This document shows, in pieces, positions 10,095 through 60,523 of a stretch of 60,619 bases of DNA (position 1 is the first letter of the stretch; each line of letters starts with the position of its first letter). The position numbers were made by a program, and so were the translations under genes. The notes under the pieces were generated by a model. It did no database searches. It saw only the letters and a list, made by a program, of their open reading frames with translations, and had not been told where the DNA came from. The DNA is from an uncultured Nitrospinota bacterium (GTDB lineage Bacteria; Nitrospinota; Nitrospinia; CAJXCL01), in the NCBI GenBank assembly GCA_964394335.1, contig CAYMVZ010000002.1:1-60619 (forward strand). Direction: 5' to 3'.

Positions 10095-10176
<82 letters not shown>

Positions 10177-14991: not shown

Positions 14992-15141
14992 AAAAAAAAT
15001 TAAATTCTATTGGACCAAAGATTTCAATCATCATTGTTGTCTTTTCCGTCATGCCGCGCCACTAAAAAGTAAAACGCGATTAAAGTTGCTATAGCCAATC
15101 CTAATTTGATGTAAATTTCTTGATAATCCATAACGCAATGG

Positions 15142-15270
15142 AGCAGCAACCACAAGTCGGTAAGGAAAACCGAATTGTACGGATTCCGAAGGAAGGCCGC
15201 CCTAAGGGTTAAGGTCCGTGATGGCAGAGCTAAGCTCAGCTTTGCCGATAATCATATAGGCTGCCGCCCG
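15142..15270 (+). repeat. Multi-hairpin structured noncoding element, copy U1 plus terminal hairpin
   Basis: Aligns over ~75 nt with the two tandem units at 57309 and 57389; see findings. Confidence 0.75.
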
Positions 15271-15377
15271 GTTTCCTAATAATAATTGTACTAAGCCATG
15301 GATAAGGCGCTGTAAAAAGCATAACTAAACACCGCCTAAAAAAAACGCAATTTTACAGATTTGCAATATAGAGAGAT

Positions 15378-54874: not shown

Positions 54875-56980
54875 ATGAATATTAATTGTTCCTGGCTGAA
54901 AGAATATATTGGTTTTGATCTCTCTCCTGAAGAACTCTCCAATAAATTAACTCTCGCGGGATTGGAAGTTGAAAACCTGAAAGAAAAAGGCAAGTCCGAT
55001 GCTTTGCTGGAGATTAATATAACTCCGAACCGGCCTGACTGCCTCAGTTTCATTGGAATAGCACGGGAAATATCCGCTCTTACCGGGTCTTCGATAAAAT
55101 ACCCGGACTGCACGGTACGAGAGCAAGGCAAAAATATTGAAAAGGTGACGGCGGTTGCCATCCATGATGAATATTTGTGTCCGCGCTATTCAGCCAGGGT
55201 TATTGAGGGAGTTAAAGTAGGCCCTTCTCCGCAATGGCTGGTGGATAAATTGGATTCCATCAATATTAGATCCATTAATAACATTGTGGACATCACAAAT
55301 TTTGTTTTGCATGAAATAGGGCAGCCGCTTCACGCGTTTGATTACGATCTGTTAAAAGAAAACAGGATTGTGGTACGTCGTGGTATTAACGGAGAGAAGT
55401 TTGTAGCCCTTGATAATACCACCTGCGATATAAAAGACTCCATGCTTGTCATTGCCGATGCGGAGAGACCAATAGCCTTGGCCGGAATAATAGGCGGCAA
55501 GAATACAGAGGTATCGGATAAAACAACTAATATTCTTCTGGAAAGCGCTTATTTCGAACCGACACAAATTCGTCGTACCTCGAAAAAACTTGGTTTACAA
55601 ACGGAATCTTCCTTTCGTTTTGAACGCGGAGCAGATCCCGAAAATGTCTTAAAAGCATCAAACCGGGCTGCGGGATTAATCTTGAAAGTGGCGGGTGGAA
55701 AAGTCGCAAAAGGGATTATTGACATTTATCCAACATTAATATCATCTCCGGAAATAACTTTGAGGCTGGACAGGGTAAATAAGGTTTTGGGAACAAACCT
55801 TACCGGGAATGAAGTAAAAAATTATGTCGAAAAACTTGACTTTTCTGTTTTGCAAGAGCAAGAGGGAAAGTTTGAGATTGAGGTGCCTTCCTGGCGGCGA
55901 GATATTACAAGAGAAATTGATTTGATTGAAGAGATTACCCGGCTTCATGGTTATGATAATATTGAAGCTAAAAGCCCTGAATACAGAATTAACAGAGTGA
56001 ACCTGAATAAATATTACACTTTCGAAAAAGAAGTAAAAAACTATTTTAAAGGAAAAGGGTTTTGCGAGGCAATTAACTACGCATTTATCAGCGATGAAAT
56101 GCAGAGGCTTTTTCAAAATAATAACCAGAATTTCGAAACCGATAATGTATTCCTGAAAAACCCTATAAACAATGAATGGCGGGTCATGAGAAAAAGCCTG
56201 TTACCGGGATTGCTGATCTCTATTCAGAAAAACATTAACAGGGGGATTGAGGAGGTTCAACTTTTTGAATTGGGCAGACAATATGACCCTGTAAAGGACA
56301 CAAATACCATTTCGAAAAATAAAGCCATGGATACTAATAAAAGTAGTTTATCAAAAGAAATTAATTATCTTTCAGGGGTGGTGACCTCAAAAGTAGAAAG
56401 AAAACTATGGAAAGAAGAAATGTCGAGAAATATATATTACTTGAAGGGGATTATCGAGATGTTTCTGGAAGAGATGCGTTTAAAAAAATTTAGTTATAAA
56501 AAAACTTCTTTGCCCACCTTTAATAATCTAATAGAATTATATAGCAGTGAAAACAAAATTGGATTTATTGGTGAGTTGAGCCGCGATGTAACTGATAAAT
56601 TGGATATTAAAGACAGTCTATTGGTATTTGAAATTAATCTTGATATGCTGTATAAAATTCGGGAAGAATTGACATCATTTAGCTCTATTTCAAAATACCC
56701 GAATATTTTAAGAGATATTGCGATTCTTGCGGATCGTAAAGTAGAATCCAAAGTAATTGAAGATTATATTAAGAGGCAAGGGACATTCCTGTTAAAAAAA
56801 CTGACTCTTTTTGACTGCTATGAAGGAAAGTCCATTCCGTCAGGTAAAAAAAGTCTTGCATATTCTCTGGTATTTGGGGATGACGAGAGGACTTTGAAGG
56901 ATGAGGAAGTTGACGCTATACATGAGAATATAATTAAGGGATTGGCTGATAAATTTAAAGCGCATTTAAGACCACAATGA
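54875..56980 (+). CDS. pheT: Phenylalanyl-tRNA synthetase beta subunit, short form lacking the B2 OB-fold
   Basis: ITPNRPDCLS, INNIVDITN, GQPLHAFD, RFERG, DLIEEI.R..GY, C-terminal anticodon-binding domain. Confidence 0.95.
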   Translation: MNINCSWLKEYIGFDLSPEELSNKLTLAGLEVENLKEKGKSDALLEINITPNRPDCLSFIGIAREISALTGSSIKYPDCTVREQGKNIEKVTAVAIHDEYLCPRYSARVIEGVKVGPSPQWLVDKLDSINIRSINNIVDITNFVLHEIGQPLHAFDYDLLKENRIVVRRGINGEKFVALDNTTCDIKDSMLVIADAERPIALAGIIGGKNTEVSDKTTNILLESAYFEPTQIRRTSKKLGLQTESSFRFERGADPENVLKASNRAAGLILKVAGGKVAKGIIDIYPTLISSPEITLRLDRVNKVLGTNLTGNEVKNYVEKLDFSVLQEQEGKFEIEVPSWRRDITREIDLIEEITRLHGYDNIEAKSPEYRINRVNLNKYYTFEKEVKNYFKGKGFCEAINYAFISDEMQRLFQNNNQNFETDNVFLKNPINNEWRVMRKSLLPGLLISIQKNINRGIEEVQLFELGRQYDPVKDTNTISKNKAMDTNKSSLSKEINYLSGVVTSKVERKLWKEEMSRNIYYLKGIIEMFLEEMRLKKFSYKKTSLPTFNNLIELYSSENKIGFIGELSRDVTDKLDIKDSLLVFEINLDMLYKIREELTSFSSISKYPNILRDIAILADRKVESKVIEDYIKRQGTFLLKKLTLFDCYEGKSIPSGKKSLAYSLVFGDDERTLKDEEVDAIHENIIKGLADKFKAHLRPQ

Positions 56981-57264
56981 AAATTGAAACCATTGATAAA
57001 TTTCAAAAAATAGAAAAAGAATTAAAAAAAATGATTTCTCAGCTGAATTCGGTTAAGGATGAAAATAAAATATTAAAAAAACGTGTAAACGAACTGGAAA
57101 AATTTAAAGCGTCAGGGTCTAAAAAAATCATAAAAGGTCAAAAAGTTTCTTCAGATTATGATAATCTTAAAAACAACTTCAACAAACTCACACGTGAAAA
57201 AGAACTTATTCGGAAAAAAGTTGATCAGATGCTAAAGAAGATGGAAACTGTTCAGATTTTTTGA
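56977..57264 (+). CDS. ZapB-like coiled-coil protein
   Basis: All-helical heptad pattern; overlaps the pheT stop; upstream of zapA. Confidence 0.65.
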   Translation: MKIETIDKFQKIEKELKKMISQLNSVKDENKILKKRVNELEKFKASGSKKIIKGQKVSSDYDNLKNNFNKLTREKELIRKKVDQMLKKMETVQIF

Positions 57265-57297
57265 GCTATTGGGACGCGGATTTTCATAAAGCGGCTA

Positions 57298-57533
57298 GTG
57301 GCTGCAGCCACAATTCGGCAGGAAAGCCGAATTGGACGAATCCCAAAGGAAGGTCGCCCGAAGGGTTGAGGTCAGGGATGGCCGATATCACAATTTTACC
57401 ACGATGGTAAAATTGGACGGATTCCGAAGGAAGGCCACCCTAAGGGTTGAGACCAGGGATGGTCGAAATCAAATGAAGCTTCCGCCCAATCTGCTAACAA
57501 AAATTGTGCTAAACTCAGCTTTGTTAAAAAAAC
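57298..57533 (+). repeat. Tandem multi-hairpin units U2 and U3 (80-nt period) plus terminal hairpin
   Basis: Palindrome GTGGCTGCAGCCAC 57298-57311; units start 57309 and 57389; homologous to 15149-15246. Confidence 0.8.
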
Positions 57534-57597
57534 ACAGTTTTGCAAGTTTGTAGTACAGAAAATAATGATAGAAAATATTTCTTTTTAAAATGATAAA

Positions 57598-57894
57598 ATG
57601 GACAAAGAAAAAAGAAATTTAACAGAAGTCGAAATATACAAGGAGTCATATAAAATTGTAAATGACGCCTCGCCGAAATACACCCAATCTCTTGCAAAAT
57701 ATGTAGATGAAAAGATGAAAGACATCTCACAAGCCACCTCAACGGTTTCATCCATGAAAGTCGCCGTTCTTGCCGCTCTAAATATTGCTGATGAGTTGTT
57801 TAAAGTGAAACAGGAATTGAAGACCGAGAAAGAAGTAATCGAAAAAGAAACAGACAGCCTGTATCGATTAATTCAAAGCAATACAAAATTTTAA
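57598..57894 (+). CDS. zapA: Cell division protein ZapA
   Basis: EVEIYKESYKI, LAKYVDEKM, KVAVLAALNIADELF. Confidence 0.92.
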   Translation: MDKEKRNLTEVEIYKESYKIVNDASPKYTQSLAKYVDEKMKDISQATSTVSSMKVAVLAALNIADELFKVKQELKTEKEVIEKETDSLYRLIQSNTKF

Positions 57895-57945: not shown

Positions 57946-58506
57946 TTGCAAAAAATAAGGTTTTACACATTTTTAGTAGTGAATTATTCCTCAAAGGTTC
58001 TAGGCTTTTTTTTAGATCTTGTTTATCCTCCGAAATGTTTTAAATGTGGATTTTCTTTGATCGGCTTGGAAAGCAGCTCGATTTGTTCCTCCTGTGTTAA
58101 AAAGATTAGTCTTATTAAACCTCCCTTTTGTGAAACATGCGGGAAACCATTCTACTTTCAATACGATCCCCCATCTGAAGGTGGCTATCGGTGTGGTACC
58201 TGCCGAACTGAGAAGCATTATTTTGATAAGGCGCGGTCTTTAGGAAAATATGAAGGAGTCTTTAGACAGGCGTTGATAAGTTACAAATATAAAGGCAGAA
58301 AGGAATTGCTGAAAGATTTTGTAAAAATATGCCTTCAGCCTCAAAATAATTATTGTTTTATTCCCCTGAAGAAGCACGTTGACAAGTCCAATGGCATAGA
58401 TGTAATTCTTTATGTTCCGTTACACAAAAAGAAATTACGAACAAGGGGATTTGATCAGGCATTCCTCATAGCTAAAGAGATATTGTATCAAATAAACATC
58501 AATTAA
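57946..58506 (+). pseudogene. comF: ComF-family protein truncated before the PRPP-binding domain
   Basis: Double Zn ribbon (CFKC, CSSC, CETC, CGTC), YKYKG, VPLHKKKLRTRGFDQA, then a stop; no DD-x-TTG motif seen in downstream frames. Confidence 0.8.
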
Positions 58507-59030: not shown

Positions 59031-59921
59031 ATGCAAGCGGCGTTAAAAAGTACCATATCAGCTTTTGATGAAATGCTCGCTTATGAAACATTGTGGGCTA
59101 TGCTAAATTCTTCACTAAAGAAAATAGCAGAAATGTTTTGTGAACATAAAGTGCTTCCTTCCGAGCTTCTTAAAATAAAGAGCGATATGTTCGATGTGCC
59201 AAAACTTAAAGAGGAGGTTGAAAAGTTCTTACTAAATAAAAGAGGGTTCCTTGTAAGTATTAATGGTGATTTTCAATATCCGAAACGACTTCGAGCAGCA
59301 AGGTATCCAATTGAACTCTTCTATTATAAAGGTGATGTGGGATTACTTGATAGTCCTTGCATTTCAGTTGTTGGAGCAAGAAAATGTACAGAAAAAGGAA
59401 TTAAAAGGACAATGGACTTAGTAAAAGGACTTGTTAAAAATGATTATACAATAGTTTCTGGACTAGCCTCAGGAATAGACAAAGTTGCAATGGAAACAGC
59501 AATAGCCTCCAAGGGAAATACTATAGGTGTAATTGGAACGCCAATAGACGAATATTATCCTAAAGAAAACAAATTGTTACAGGATGAAATCTCCTCGAAA
59601 TATCTATTGATGAGTCAAGTTCCATTTTATAGATATAAGAAGGAACCGTTTAGCTCAAAAAGAAATTATTTCCCACAGAGAAATGCGACAATGTCAGCCT
59701 TATCTTATGCAACAATAATTGTTGAGGCATCTGATACAAGCGGAACATTGATCCAAGCAAGAGAATGTTTAGCTCAAAACAGAAAACTATTCATTTTAAA
59801 TTCTTGTTTTGAAAACTCAAATATTTCTTGGCCGAGAAAATACGAAGAACGTGGTGCTAAAAGAGTATATGAGTTAGACGATATATTGAATGTCTTAAAT
59901 AATGGTCCAACTAAAAAATGA
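59031..59921 (+). CDS. DprA/Smf-family Rossmann-fold protein (ShosA-like)
   Basis: YPKRLR, LFYYKGD, SVVGAR, IVSGLASGID, YPKEN, FPQRN, IIVEA..TSGTLIQA; lacks the C-terminal winged helix of competence DprA. Confidence 0.9.
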   Translation: MQAALKSTISAFDEMLAYETLWAMLNSSLKKIAEMFCEHKVLPSELLKIKSDMFDVPKLKEEVEKFLLNKRGFLVSINGDFQYPKRLRAARYPIELFYYKGDVGLLDSPCISVVGARKCTEKGIKRTMDLVKGLVKNDYTIVSGLASGIDKVAMETAIASKGNTIGVIGTPIDEYYPKENKLLQDEISSKYLLMSQVPFYRYKKEPFSSKRNYFPQRNATMSALSYATIIVEASDTSGTLIQARECLAQNRKLFILNSCFENSNISWPRKYEERGAKRVYELDDILNVLNNGPTKK

Positions 59922-60523
59922 GCGGTTTATGGAAAATAATAGAAAAAACTGTAGGAACAGATTTTCCACAACACCTTGATGACACAGACAAATGTTATTA
60001 TGCTCGAGATTATATTTCTCAAGGTGGGTATCAATCTTCAGAAACTAACGATCTCATTTCAAATTTTAAAAAATCTACGGACAGGAAGAATAAACCTGAA
60101 TGGCATTATAAGAAAATAGCAATTGAAAGATTTGCCACTGAGTTAAGTCTTGTAATTCGAGATAAGATGTCAATAACTTGCATACCTAGTTCAAAGTGTA
60201 CTACTGATCCTGATTATGACTTTAGATTAGAAGAAACACTTTTACATTTAAAAGAAAAGAAGCCTTTGATAAATATTGAATATCCCTTAAAAGTTTCACA
60301 AACAACACTTGCATCTCATCTTGGTGGCAGTAGAGATATTTCTACGATTTATGCTAATTTGAAATGGGATGGTTTTACTACACCACCCGAAAAACTAATT
60401 ATCCTTATAGATGATGTTATTACTTCTGGTGCGCACTTTAAGGCATGTAAAAAAAAATTTTTAGAACATCATCCAGGTATTGAGGTTTTAGGGTTGTTCT
60501 GGGCAAAGACTGTATCGAAATAA
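59918..60523 (+). CDS. Phosphoribosyltransferase-like protein (ShosT-like PRTase domain)
   Basis: PRPP motif IILIDDVITSGAHF, CIPSSK; ATGA overlap with the DprA-like gene. Confidence 0.8.
   Translation: MSGLWKIIEKTVGTDFPQHLDDTDKCYYARDYISQGGYQSSETNDLISNFKKSTDRKNKPEWHYKKIAIERFATELSLVIRDKMSITCIPSSKCTTDPDYDFRLEETLLHLKEKKPLINIEYPLKVSQTTLASHLGGSRDISTIYANLKWDGFTTPPEKLIILIDDVITSGAHFKACKKKFLEHHPGIEVLGLFWAKTVSK

What the first reader, a model, noticed from the sequence alone, without database searches (positions are those of the whole stretch)
57298..57533. Tandem 80-nt units: variable perfect hairpin + conserved structured core (candidate new RNA or ssDNA motif)
U2 hairpin 1 is CAATTCGGC-AGGAAA-GCCGAATTG and U3 hairpin 1 is CAATTTTACCA-CGA-TGGTAAAATTG: different sequence, the same CAATT/AATTG base, perfect pairing. 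The core is GAC-G(A/G)A, T(C/T)CC-(A/G)AA-GGAA, GG(T/C)C, (G/A)CCC-(G/T)AA-GGGT, TGA, then GGTCA-GGGA-TGGCC versus GACCA-GGGA-TGGTC (compensatory, GNRA loop; GTGA in U1). An exclusive alternative pairing AT(C/T)CC/GGGAT also holds in both units. I cannot match it to a riboswitch, ribozyme or SRP family from memory. It sits in the transcribed direction between zapB-like and zapA, so it could be a regulatory RNA, a processing site or a REP/BIME-like HUH substrate.
Basis: partly seen in the sequence, partly recalled or inferred. Interest (0 to 1): 0.7.

Follow-up and report, generated by a model that had tools for sequence, protein, structure and literature searches.

The report
Modular hairpin-rich intergenic repeat element
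The two 80-nt units are the optional middle module of a roughly 275-nt hairpin-rich repeat that is scattered in dozens of copies through marine Nitrospinota genomes, so it looks like a small parasitic DNA element rather than a regulator made for zapA.

Summary
There are two 80/81-nt units (57311-57390 and 57391-57471). Each has a perfect but different first hairpin followed by a conserved three-hairpin core. No Rfam family matches.

It is not specific to this locus. The units sit inside a larger element (about 57285-57559) made of a head hairpin plus AGCCA, then the units, then a tail with two more hairpins. A third copy lies at about 15127-15371.

The same head–unit–tail element occurs about 100 times in 733 kb of Nitrospinota metagenome and MAG DNA. 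It is always intergenic and lies in both orientations, with 0, 1 or 2 units. One isolated unit directly follows a tmRNA gene.

The zapB-like/zapA spacer is 9 nt (empty), 136, 235 or 333 nt in close relatives.

Orthologous copies diverge at about the neutral rate and break pairs. Across the family the hairpins covary, so the structure seems to matter for spread, not for the host.

It is transcribed: two metatranscriptome contigs contain it.

It has no TIRs, no variable TSD, no REP tag, and no transposase was found.

Verdict: a new family of BOX/BIME-like modular mosaic repeats. The mobilisation mechanism is unknown.

The parts
57285..57310 (+). Head module: CATAAAG, then hairpin H0 GCGGCT-AGT-GGCTGC (57291-57305), then AGCCA.
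   Evidence: Aligns with the family head CATAAAG-GCGGCC-AAGG-GGCCGC-AACCA. H0 covaries across copies: GCGGCC/GGCCGC, GCGGCG/CGCCGC, GCGGAG/CUCCGC, GCGGCU/AGCCGC, GUGGCC/GGCCAC.
57311..57390 (+). H1 57311-57334; H2 57337-57356 (CGA..TCG closing pairs); H3 57356-57366 (GCCC-GAA-GGGT); H4 57370-57383 (GGTCA-GGGA-TGGCC); 3' end GATATCA.
   Evidence: It is 88.7% identical to the orthologous unit of L104, the same as third codon positions.
57391..57471 (+). H1 57391-57415; H2 57418-57437; H3 57437-57447; H4 57451-57464 (GACCA-GGGA-TGGTC); 3' end GAAATCA.
   Evidence: The type-B hairpin is identical (25/25) in L004 from another MAG. A near-identical unit is present in RNA contigs of X21/X22. This unit is absent from the orthologous element of L104.
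57472..57559 (+). Tail module: AAT-GAAGCTTCCGCCC (the H5 position), a spacer, then the long A/T-rich hairpin H6 (arms 57500-57508 AAAATTGTG and 57533-57541 CACAGTTTT), then GCAAGTTTGTAGTACAGA.
   Evidence: Aligns to the family tail. Contigs of other copies diverge after 57559 (loose ends). H5 and H6 covary in the family. Most of a promoter-like match TTTGCA-N16-AATAAT (57539-57566) lies here; its -10 box runs past the element's end (consensus match only).
15127..15371 (+). Second locus of the same family in the window: degenerate head, one unit (15153-15233, with a mismatch in H1 and a 21-nt insertion in H4), and a tail with an extra insert in the H6 loop. It lies between convergent genes (TPR/PMT_2 protein and lspA).
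   Evidence: It is orthologous to L003:6658-6850. Identity there is 89%, with different uncompensated H1 mutations in each genome.

Best explanation
The two units are the internal, copy-number-variable module of one copy of a dispersed, non-coding, modular repeat family of marine Nitrospinota. I read it as a parasitic or mosaic intergenic element of the BOX/BIME kind.

Architecture:
- Head: hairpin H0 followed by AAYCA.
- 0, 1 or 2 units of about 81 nt. Each unit has a perfect hairpin H1 of discrete sequence types on a CAATT/AATTG base, a variable hairpin H2 on a CGG/CCG base, an invariant CCC-GAA-GGG mini-hairpin H3, and hairpin H4 with an ARGGAU loop followed by GAAATCA.
- Tail: hairpin H5, then the A-tract/T-tract hairpin H6, then ACAGTGTAATAGTATAAAG.

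Shown:
- The family exists in many copies, in both orientations, and only between genes.
- The zapB-like/zapA spacer is empty in one close relative, and holds 0-unit, 1-unit or other content in others.
- Copies at orthologous sites decay at about the neutral rate.
- Family-wide, the stems covary.
- Some copies are present in RNA.

Inferred:
- The hairpins are needed for the element's propagation (recognition of a folded single strand by an enzyme supplied in trans), not for a host function at each locus.
- Module number and content are reshuffled by recombination or gene conversion between copies.
- At this locus the element is a passenger co-transcribed within the pheT/coiled-coil/zapA mRNA. 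There its stable hairpins may incidentally affect read-through, processing or mRNA stability.

The mobilising enzyme and intermediate (ssDNA or RNA) are not known.
For: **Repeat family**
- The genome scan found 4 Nitrospinota MAG loci.
- The metagenome scan found 99 loci, about 60 of them true. At least 30 contigs come from one metagenome, with up to 3 pattern matches per locus; nhmmer finds up to 4 copies per locus.
- nhmmer gives 104 hits in 733 kb.
- Word depth over the core is 600-1100 versus 24 in the flanks in runs X1/X2.

**Modularity**
- More than 20 zero-unit copies have an identical junction, AACCA|AAUAGGG. Whole elements also occur in tandem.
- The window has 2 units and L104 has 1.
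- An isolated unit lies directly after the tmRNA CCA.

**Orientation**
- All copies are intergenic.
- In co-directional gene pairs, 24 are sense and 15 antisense (not significant). Orientation is mixed within single contigs.

**Presence/absence at this spacer**
- 333 nt in the window; 235 nt in L104-107; 236 nt with different content in L108; 9 nt in L111; 136 nt in L112, a zero-unit form.
- L111 instead has an element right after zapA.

**Neutral decay**
- U2 is 88.7% identical to the L104 unit, against 80-89% at third codon positions. The head is 67% identical.
- The 15-kb copy is 89% identical, with uncompensated stem mutations and indels.

**Covariation**
- 8 pairs and 31 cells show double changes, against 3.2 and 8.3 in shuffles (0/500).
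- Alternative H2 stems exist: CGGAU..AUCCG, CGGAUG..CAUCCG, CAGC..GCUG.
- H0 and H5 occur in compensated variants.

**RNA**
- Contigs of 152 and 158 nt hold units (the 152-nt one also a head), at depth 52/46 (X21) and 14.7/9.6 (X22). Flanking genes have depth 0.

**Parallel with BOX**
- BOX elements are boxA and boxC separated by a variable number of tandem boxB. A1C1 forms exist, boxB folds on its own, and the authors judged the elements parasitic (PMC3049150).
Against: - No terminal inverted repeats.
- No copy-specific target-site duplication: own-flank longest common substring 3.9, shuffled 3.6 +/- 0.16.
- No transposase or RAYT motif in 733 kb. Genes flanked by inverted copies are housekeeping genes. 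Mobility is therefore inferred only from distribution and polymorphism.
- The empty site could be a deletion between short ATTTTTTRA repeats rather than the ancestral state.
- Strong conservation of H3, of the ARGGAU loop, and of the exact H1 type-B sequence across genomes could reflect a host-level function.
- The RNA contigs are unexpectedly abundant for a passenger sequence.
- The sample is biased. Loci were fetched with a pattern lying in H2/H3, so invariance there is partly imposed.
Confidence: 0.65

Rival explanations
1. The 81-nt unit (and perhaps the whole element) is moved as folded single-stranded DNA by an HUH/Y1 enzyme, in the style of REP/RAYT or IS200/IS605 'PATE' elements. The unit would insert 3' of an AYCA tetranucleotide that follows a hairpin. 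Its own right end (hairpin H4 plus GAAATCA) would recreate that target. This would explain tandem units, precise unit-less junctions and the copy behind the tmRNA CCA.
For: - Every unit is preceded by AACCA, CACCA, AATCA or TATCA and ends in (A/T)ATCA.
- Zero-unit copies read AACCA|AAUAGGG, as a seamless excision or an unfilled target would.
- The window's second unit has a different H1 type and is 16% diverged, so it is not a local duplication.
- In L108 a different module follows the same head+AACCA junction.
- A hairpin followed by a cleavage site a few nt downstream is the geometry of IS200/IS605 right ends and relaxase nic sites (my knowledge).
- C-GAA-G mini-hairpins are exceptionally stable in DNA (my knowledge).
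Against: - No Y1/RAYT signature in 733 kb, and no REPs flanking a gene in the RAYT manner.
- No GTAG/CGTC tag.
- H1 starts right at the left junction, which leaves no room for an IS608-type guide segment.
- Orientation is mixed within contigs, so there is no evident strand bias.
- One RNA-contig unit is preceded by TTTTTA, not AYCA.
- Gene conversion between 0-unit and 1-unit copies explains the precise junctions without any enzyme.
Confidence: 0.15
2. The units are a host-useful RNA module carried by a mobile scaffold. For example, they could be a protein-binding decoy. H4 reads CARGGAUG in a hairpin loop, which is the CsrA/RsmE consensus, and H2 carries a second GGA about 35 nt upstream. Alternatively they could be an mRNA-stabilising or processing structure.
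For: - The H4 loop consensus is A-R-G-G-A-U, closed by C-G pairs.
- Unit-containing RNA contigs reach depth about 50, while neighbouring mRNAs are undetected.
- There is hairpin covariation.
- The H1 type-B sequence is identical across genomes.
Against: - GGA is lost in many copies: loops AAGAAU, AAAGAU, AAAAAU, AGAGAU.
- The H2 GGA is absent in the alternative H2 variants.
- There is no sense-orientation preference: 24 versus 15.
- Orthologous copies decay neutrally.
- No csrA was seen in the sampled DNA, though only 733 kb were examined.
- G-U versus A-C wobble counts give no strand signal: 27 versus 29.
Confidence: 0.1
3. It is a locus-specific cis-regulator (riboswitch, attenuator or processing site) that controls zapA within the pheT-zapA operon.
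For: - It lies in sense orientation directly upstream of zapA.
- The fold is strong: z = -3.2 to -4.1.
- A promoter-like TTTGCA-N16-AATAAT sits at its 3' end.
Against: - The same element occurs next to unrelated genes, in either orientation.
- A relative with 84% identical ZapA has only 9 nt between the two genes.
- Relatives carry 0 or 1 unit, or unrelated DNA, at this position.
- It diverges at the neutral rate.
- No Rfam match.
Confidence: 0.03
4. It is a bidirectional transcription-terminator cassette. H6 followed by a T-run would act on the + strand, and GC-rich H0 followed by TTTATG on the - strand. It would be spread because it insulates neighbouring genes.
For: - H6 is flanked by an A-tract and a T-tract, and H0 is GC-rich with a U-rich 3' side on the reverse strand.
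- An orientation-independent function would fit the random orientation.
Against: - The terminator scan finds nothing in the window copy or in a consensus copy.
- 21 copies lie between divergent genes, where no terminator is needed.
- The window copy sits inside an operon whose downstream gene, zapA, must still be expressed.
- It does not explain the units.
Confidence: 0.05

Closest known systems
BOX elements of Streptococcus pneumoniae / S. suis (boxA-boxB(n)-boxC)
   Same: - Both are composite intergenic repeats with fixed 5' and 3' modules and a tandem, copy-number-variable internal module that folds on its own.
- Both have forms without the internal module (A1C1).
- Length varies between strains at orthologous sites.
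- Both are transcribed when co-oriented with genes, and BOX were judged parasitic (PMC3049150; compare).
   Different: - There is no sequence similarity, and the phylum is different.
- The unit here is 81 nt with four hairpins, versus about 45 nt for boxB.
- BOX have terminal inverted repeats and target-site duplications. None were found here.
- Head and tail do not pair with each other here.
REP / BIME (bacterial interspersed mosaic elements) and REPINs with RAYT transposases
   Same: All are high-copy extragenic hairpin repeats assembled into mosaic clusters. They occur in either orientation, and structure is conserved by compensatory change (PMC2817692, PMC3116915, PMC3733652).
   Different: - REPs are single 20-40-nt palindromes with a GTAG/CGTC tag. 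They are arranged in alternating orientation and linked to a RAYT gene.
- Here the elements are 100-275 nt with 3 to 11 different hairpins in one orientation.
- They have no tag, and no RAYT was found.
MITEs with strong RNA/DNA secondary structure (Correia, ERIC/IRU, RUP, Bacillus cereus bcr1)
   Same: Size range of 100-300 bp, non-coding, intergenic, multi-copy, polymorphic between relatives, and co-transcribed with neighbours.
   Different: There are no terminal inverted repeats and no copy-specific TSD. Both ends instead carry the same short direct motif, (C/T)ATAAAG. That motif may be a fixed target, as proposed for bcr1's TTTAT (my knowledge), or part of the element.
IS200/IS605-derived palindrome-associated elements (PATEs)
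   Same: Both have subterminal hairpins at both ends of the unit, insertion next to a fixed short sequence, no TSD, and seamless unit-less junctions.
   Different: No TnpA or TnpB partner was found. The left hairpin abuts the junction, and there is no strand bias. None of this was tested biochemically.

Membership tests
Any Rfam family (riboswitch, ribozyme, SRP, 6S, sRNA) | Covariance-model score at or above the family's gathering threshold | tested here: not met
   The window at gathering score gives only one tRNA at 10095-10174. The region at E<=10 gives only noise of 13-16 bits, against cut-offs of 35-57. A consensus copy in L009 also gives only noise.
REP/BIME (RAYT-associated) | Short (20-40 nt) imperfect palindrome with a conserved GTAG or CGTC 5' tag | tested here: not met
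   The hairpins H0-H6 carry no such tag. The unit is 81 nt and the element is 100-275 nt.
REP/BIME (RAYT-associated) | A RAYT (Y1 HUH) gene in the genome, typically flanked by the REPs | tested here: inconclusive
   No HUH...Y motif was found in the six-frame translation of 733 kb. Genes between inverted copies are GAPDH and a membrane protein. No whole genome was available.
REP/BIME (RAYT-associated) | High copy number, extragenic, both orientations, mosaic clusters | tested here: met
MITE | Terminal inverted repeats | tested here: not met
   Only internal hairpins are found in consensus copies.
MITE | Target-site duplication that differs from copy to copy | tested here: not met
   Own-flank longest common substring is 3.9, versus 3.6 +/- 0.16 for shuffled pairs. 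A constant (C/T)ATAAAG at both ends is compatible with a fixed duplicated target but does not prove one.
MITE | Presence/absence polymorphism at orthologous sites | tested here: met
   The zapB-like/zapA spacer is 9, 136, 235, 236 or 333 nt. L111 has an element after zapA, and the window does not.
BOX-type modular repeat | Constant 5' and 3' modules with 0 to n tandem internal modules | tested here: met
   Head and tail carry 0, 1 or 2 units. The definition is from PMC3049150.
BOX-type modular repeat | Sequence homology to boxA/B/C; TIR related to an IS; TSD | tested here: not met
   No TIR or TSD. The sequences are unrelated by inspection, but no formal HMM comparison with BOX was run.
IS200/IS605-type (PATE) ssDNA element | Insertion 3' of a fixed tetra- or pentanucleotide without duplication, with subterminal hairpins at both ends | tested here: inconclusive
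   Units follow AYCA and end in ATCA, and H1 and H4 are subterminal. One exception is TTTTTA. Recombination explains the same pattern.
IS200/IS605-type (PATE) ssDNA element | Cleavage and strand transfer by a Y1 transposase; lagging-strand orientation bias | not testable with these tools
   This needs complete replicons and biochemistry. Orientation is mixed within contigs.
CsrB/RsmZ-like CsrA decoy | Multiple conserved GGA motifs in hairpin loops, and a csrA gene in the genome | tested here: inconclusive
   The H4 loop consensus is CARGGAUG, but GGA is lost in many copies and in the H2 variants. No csrA was found in 733 kb.
Intrinsic terminator | GC-rich stem followed by a T-run | tested here: not met
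   No site was found in the window copy or in a consensus copy.

The most novel reading that the evidence does not exclude
The 81-nt unit may itself be a tiny site-specific mobile module. It would be nested in a larger repeat and insert (and excise seamlessly) 3' of a 'hairpin + AYCA' signal. That signal is mimicked by the CCA end of tmRNA. Each unit would recreate the signal with its own H4-GAAATCA end, and its H1 'cassette' would come in discrete perfect-palindrome types. If so, it is mobilised by an enzyme or RNA/ssDNA pathway that has not yet been linked to such small elements.
Probability: 0.12. Interest if true: 0.7.

Novelty: new member of a known kind. Interest (0 to 1): 0.35.

Why it matters
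It explains an eye-catching structured sequence without invoking a new riboregulator. It also gives annotators of Nitrospinota genomes (key marine nitrite oxidisers) a repeat family to mask, use as a strain marker, and consider as a source of assembly breaks. Contigs end at these elements.

Modular BOX-like repeats have so far been described mainly in streptococci. A second, unrelated modular family has units that covary, are transcribed, vary between close relatives and once abut a tmRNA 3' end. That offers an independent system for asking how such TIR-less, transposase-less repeats spread, and whether they affect operon expression (here, the cell-division gene zapA).

Tried and rejected
- **Rfam.** Searched at gathering and permissive thresholds on the window and on a consensus copy. 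Nothing.
- **Tandem Repeats Finder.** It misses the array because of the unlike H1.
No covariation.
- **Strand of the structure from G-U versus A-C counts.** 27 versus 29, no signal apart from the fixed G-U at the base of H3. An earlier by-eye estimate of a 2:1 bias was wrong.
- **Terminal inverted repeats.** None.
- **Copy-specific TSD.** None.
- **Sigma-70 promoter and intrinsic terminator scans.** Only one weak promoter-like site at the window copy's end, and nothing in a consensus copy.
- **CsrA and Y1-transposase motif searches in six frames of all fetched DNA.** Nothing.
- **RAYT-like arrangement (gene flanked by inverted copies).** The genes are housekeeping.
- **tRNA linkage.** Only the tmRNA abuts a unit. 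tRNAs are merely nearby.
- **Viral contigs.** No copy.
- **Literature on Nitrospina repeats.** Nothing found.
- **Long-range pairing of ATTGGGACGCGGA with TCCGCCCAAT in the window.** The 15-kb copy shows no counterpart by eye. Its similar-looking left flank lies at the 3' end of, and just beyond, a conserved small ORF on the other strand.
- **6S RNA (a known zapA neighbour in other phyla).** No model match.

Full report
**The observation**

The region lies between a 95-aa coiled-coil ORF (56977-57264) and zapA (57598-57894), downstream of pheT, all on the + strand. Pfam ZapB scores only E=0.04 for the coiled-coil ORF, below the cut-off. ZapA scores PF05164 at 2.9e-19.

The repeat finder returns one direct-repeat family, 57330-57390 and 57411-57471. 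It is 61 nt long, 84% identical, with spacing 81. It also returns two perfect hairpins, 57311-57334 (9 bp) and 57391-57415 (11 bp), which share only their CAATT/AATTG base. The core patterns have chance expectations of 0.02 and 0.00 matches in the window. The stretch folds better than shuffles on both strands, with z = -3.2 and -5.3. For the whole element on the + strand, z = -4.1. No Rfam family matches.

Three small points are not correct:
- 'U1' has no GTGA loop.
- The alternative AUUCC/GGGAU pairing has no covariation.
- The feature extends beyond the stated coordinates.

**It is a repeat family**

A third copy of the core lies at 15153-15233. Its flanks align with those of the 57-kb locus both upstream and downstream of the units.

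A degenerate core pattern found 4 loci in species-representative genomes. They are labelled Nitrospinota, uncultured Nitrospirae or uncultured bacterium. A shorter version of the pattern found 99 metagenome loci, of which about 60 are true copies. At least 30 of the contigs come from a single metagenome, with up to three pattern matches per locus.

Aligning 56 copies with flanks gives sharp boundaries and this consensus:
- CATAAAG-GCGGCC-AAGG-GGCCGC-AACCA | CAATTCGGC-AGAGAAA-GCCGAATTG GA CGGATTCCGAAGGAAGGCCG CCCGAAGGG TTGAG CCCARGGATGGG CGAAATCA | AATAGGGCTTCCGCCCTGGAGAACAAAC GAAAAAACTTGTTCAAAAAACAAGTTTTTACAGTGTAATAGTATAAAG

An HMM of this element hits 104 places in the 733 kb fetched. In the two DNA runs that hold the window's organism, word depth over the core is 600-1100, against 24 in the flanks. 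The window copy corresponds to head 57285-57310, units 57311-57390 and 57391-57471, and tail 57472-57559. Contigs of other copies diverge after 57559.

**Modularity**

More than 20 copies have no unit at all. In them the head's AACCA is joined directly to the tail's AAUAGGG, always at the same position. Whole elements also occur head-to-tail, with the tail's GTATAAAG fused to the next head. Most copies have one unit, and the window has two.

Further optional inserts occur in the H6 loop. In L108, a different 190-230-nt repeat follows a head+AACCA junction.

One lineage has a bare unit directly after the CCA end of its tmRNA gene, with neither head nor tail. The HMM aligns the tmRNA 3' end to the head's 3' half.

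H1 comes in discrete types:
- Type A is CAATTCGGC..GCCGAATTG.
- Type B is CAATTTTACCACGATGGTAAAATTG. It is identical in the window and in L004.
- Further variants appear in RNA contigs.

H2 also comes in unrelated versions that keep a CGG/CCG-type base.

**Distribution relative to genes**

With a simple ORF caller, nearly all copies are intergenic. In co-directional gene pairs, 24 are sense and 15 antisense. A further 21 lie between divergent genes and 10 between convergent genes. Orientation is mixed within single contigs. This is not what a cis-acting RNA element would show.

**Polymorphism at this very site**

ZapA homologues led to orthologous contigs.

| Locus | ZapA identity to window | zapB-like/zapA spacer | Content |
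|---|---|---|---|
| window | – | 333 nt | two units |
| L104-107 | 94% | 235 nt | one type-A unit, a different tail |
| L108/109 | 87% | 236 nt | left part replaced by an unrelated repeat |
| L111 | 84% | 9 nt | ...CAGATTTTTTAAGAGGATAAAATGG, empty |
| L112/113 | 75% | 136 nt | a diverged zero-unit element |

These contents were read. L111 instead has a full element immediately after zapA, where the window has none. Filled sites carry a second ATTT(C)TTTTTAA next to the zapA RBS. That is compatible either with a roughly 9-bp duplication or with deletion end-points.

**Selection**

Between the window and L104, unit U2 is 88.7% identical and the head 67%. Third codon positions of the flanking genes are 80-89% identical. 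At the 15-kb locus the window and L003 differ by uncompensated H1 mutations and by indels. Individual copies therefore drift about neutrally.

Across 58 distinct units, the consensus fold is exactly H1-H4. 95.5% of cells are paired. Eight pairs and 31 cells show double changes, against 3.2 and 8.3 in shuffles (0/500). The slid controls collapse. H0 and H5 occur in several fully compensated versions.

I read this combination as meaning that structure is required for propagation of the element. Only intact copies seed new ones. The structure does not appear to serve a function at each locus. G-U versus A-C counts do not identify the folding strand.

**Transcription**

Two small metatranscriptomes come from the same sample as DNA run X2.
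- One contig of 152 nt (depth 52 and 14.7) holds a head, a type-A unit and the start of another CAATTG... module.
- One contig of 158 nt (depth 46 and 9.6) holds a type-B unit.
- pheT, the coiled-coil gene and zapA have depth 0.
- tmRNA has depth 3,000-28,000. This drops to about 50-100 right after the CCA, and that residual depth comes from other unit copies, not from read-through.

Contigs carry no strand or end information, so processing cannot be judged.

**What it is not**

- It has no TIRs.
- It has no variable TSD.
- It has no REP tag.
- No Y1/RAYT or CsrA motif occurs in the sampled DNA.
- There is no RAYT-like arrangement.
- It has no consensus terminator. The only promoter-like match is a single weak one at the window copy's end.
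- No copy occurs in viral contigs.
- No paper on such repeats in Nitrospina was found.

**Comparison with known elements**

The nearest analogue is the pneumococcal and S. suis BOX element. It consists of boxA and boxC around a variable tandem array of independently folding boxB. A1C1 forms exist, length varies between strains, the elements are transcribed, and the authors judged them parasitic (PMC3049150). The present family shares that logic, but it shares neither the sequence nor the TIR/TSD features.

REP/BIME/REPIN systems (PMC2817692, PMC3116915, PMC3733652) share the mosaic, hairpin-based, extragenic character. Their defining tag, size and RAYT linkage are not met here, or could not be tested.

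The regular 'hairpin + AYCA | unit ... hairpin + ATCA |' junctions, together with the tmRNA-adjacent unit, keep open a more interesting reading. In it, the unit is itself a site-specific ssDNA (HUH-type) or otherwise mobilised module. I give this about 0.12-0.15.

**Verdict**

This is a real and well-described motif, but it is a copy of a dispersed modular repeat, which makes it a new family of a known kind. At this locus it is most likely a co-transcribed passenger that separates two genes which are adjacent in a close relative.

Noticed in passing
window 15032-15139 (- strand): A conserved 35-aa hydrophobic small ORF, MDYQEIYIKLGLAIATLIAFYFLVARHDGKDNNDD*, lies just left of the 15-kb element. 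The surrounding region, 14992-15129, is 94% identical to L003, against 77-90% at third codon positions.
   Followed up: partly
window 57946-58506 and 59031-60523: The comF-like ORF covers only residues 5-180 of the 263-aa ComF (DZR_2 + Pribosyltran) of relative L104. Relatives then have Ham1-like and TPR genes. The window instead has a DprA/SLOG-like gene (PF02481, 2.5e-53) and a weak PRTase-CE-like gene. This looks like a replacement or a small island that truncates comF.
   Followed up: partly
L108:2265-2500 and L108:2840-3060: A second, unrelated repeat of about 190-230 nt occupies both the zapB-like/zapA spacer and the region after zapA in this relative. It reads ..AATAGAACGCnGATnACGC.. 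(a hairpin in the middle, e.g. TTTTCGTTCCC/GGGAACGAAAA in the zapB-like/zapA copy) ..TTTTAATCTGTnTTAATCCGnATCATCnGTGAAATCnGTGTTCCATTTATTnCAATAGGTT. The second copy sits directly behind a head hairpin + AACCA.
   Followed up: no
L001:4761-5198 (also L054, L087): A tmRNA gene (tag ANDYEYALAA) is followed, with no spacer after its CCA, by a single type-A unit lacking head and tail. RNA depth falls about 300-fold at the CCA.
   Followed up: partly
L111:2797-2844: The relative with the empty zapB-like/zapA spacer carries a full head + unit element starting 2 nt after the zapA stop codon. The window has no element at that position.
   Followed up: yes
window 15233-15340; L055, L029, L001:2064-2212: There are further optional inserts. 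One is a 21-nt insertion in H4 of the window's 15-kb copy. Another is a roughly 40-60-nt module (GAGCTTTGCATAAGGCGYTGTAAAAAGC...) inside the H6 loop of several copies. The tail is therefore mosaic too.
   Followed up: partly
window 57539-57566: A promoter-like TTTGCA-N16-AATAAT has its -35 box in the last bases of the element and its -10 box (57561-57566) just past the element's end at 57559. It could drive zapA now that the element separates zapA from the upstream gene.
   Followed up: no
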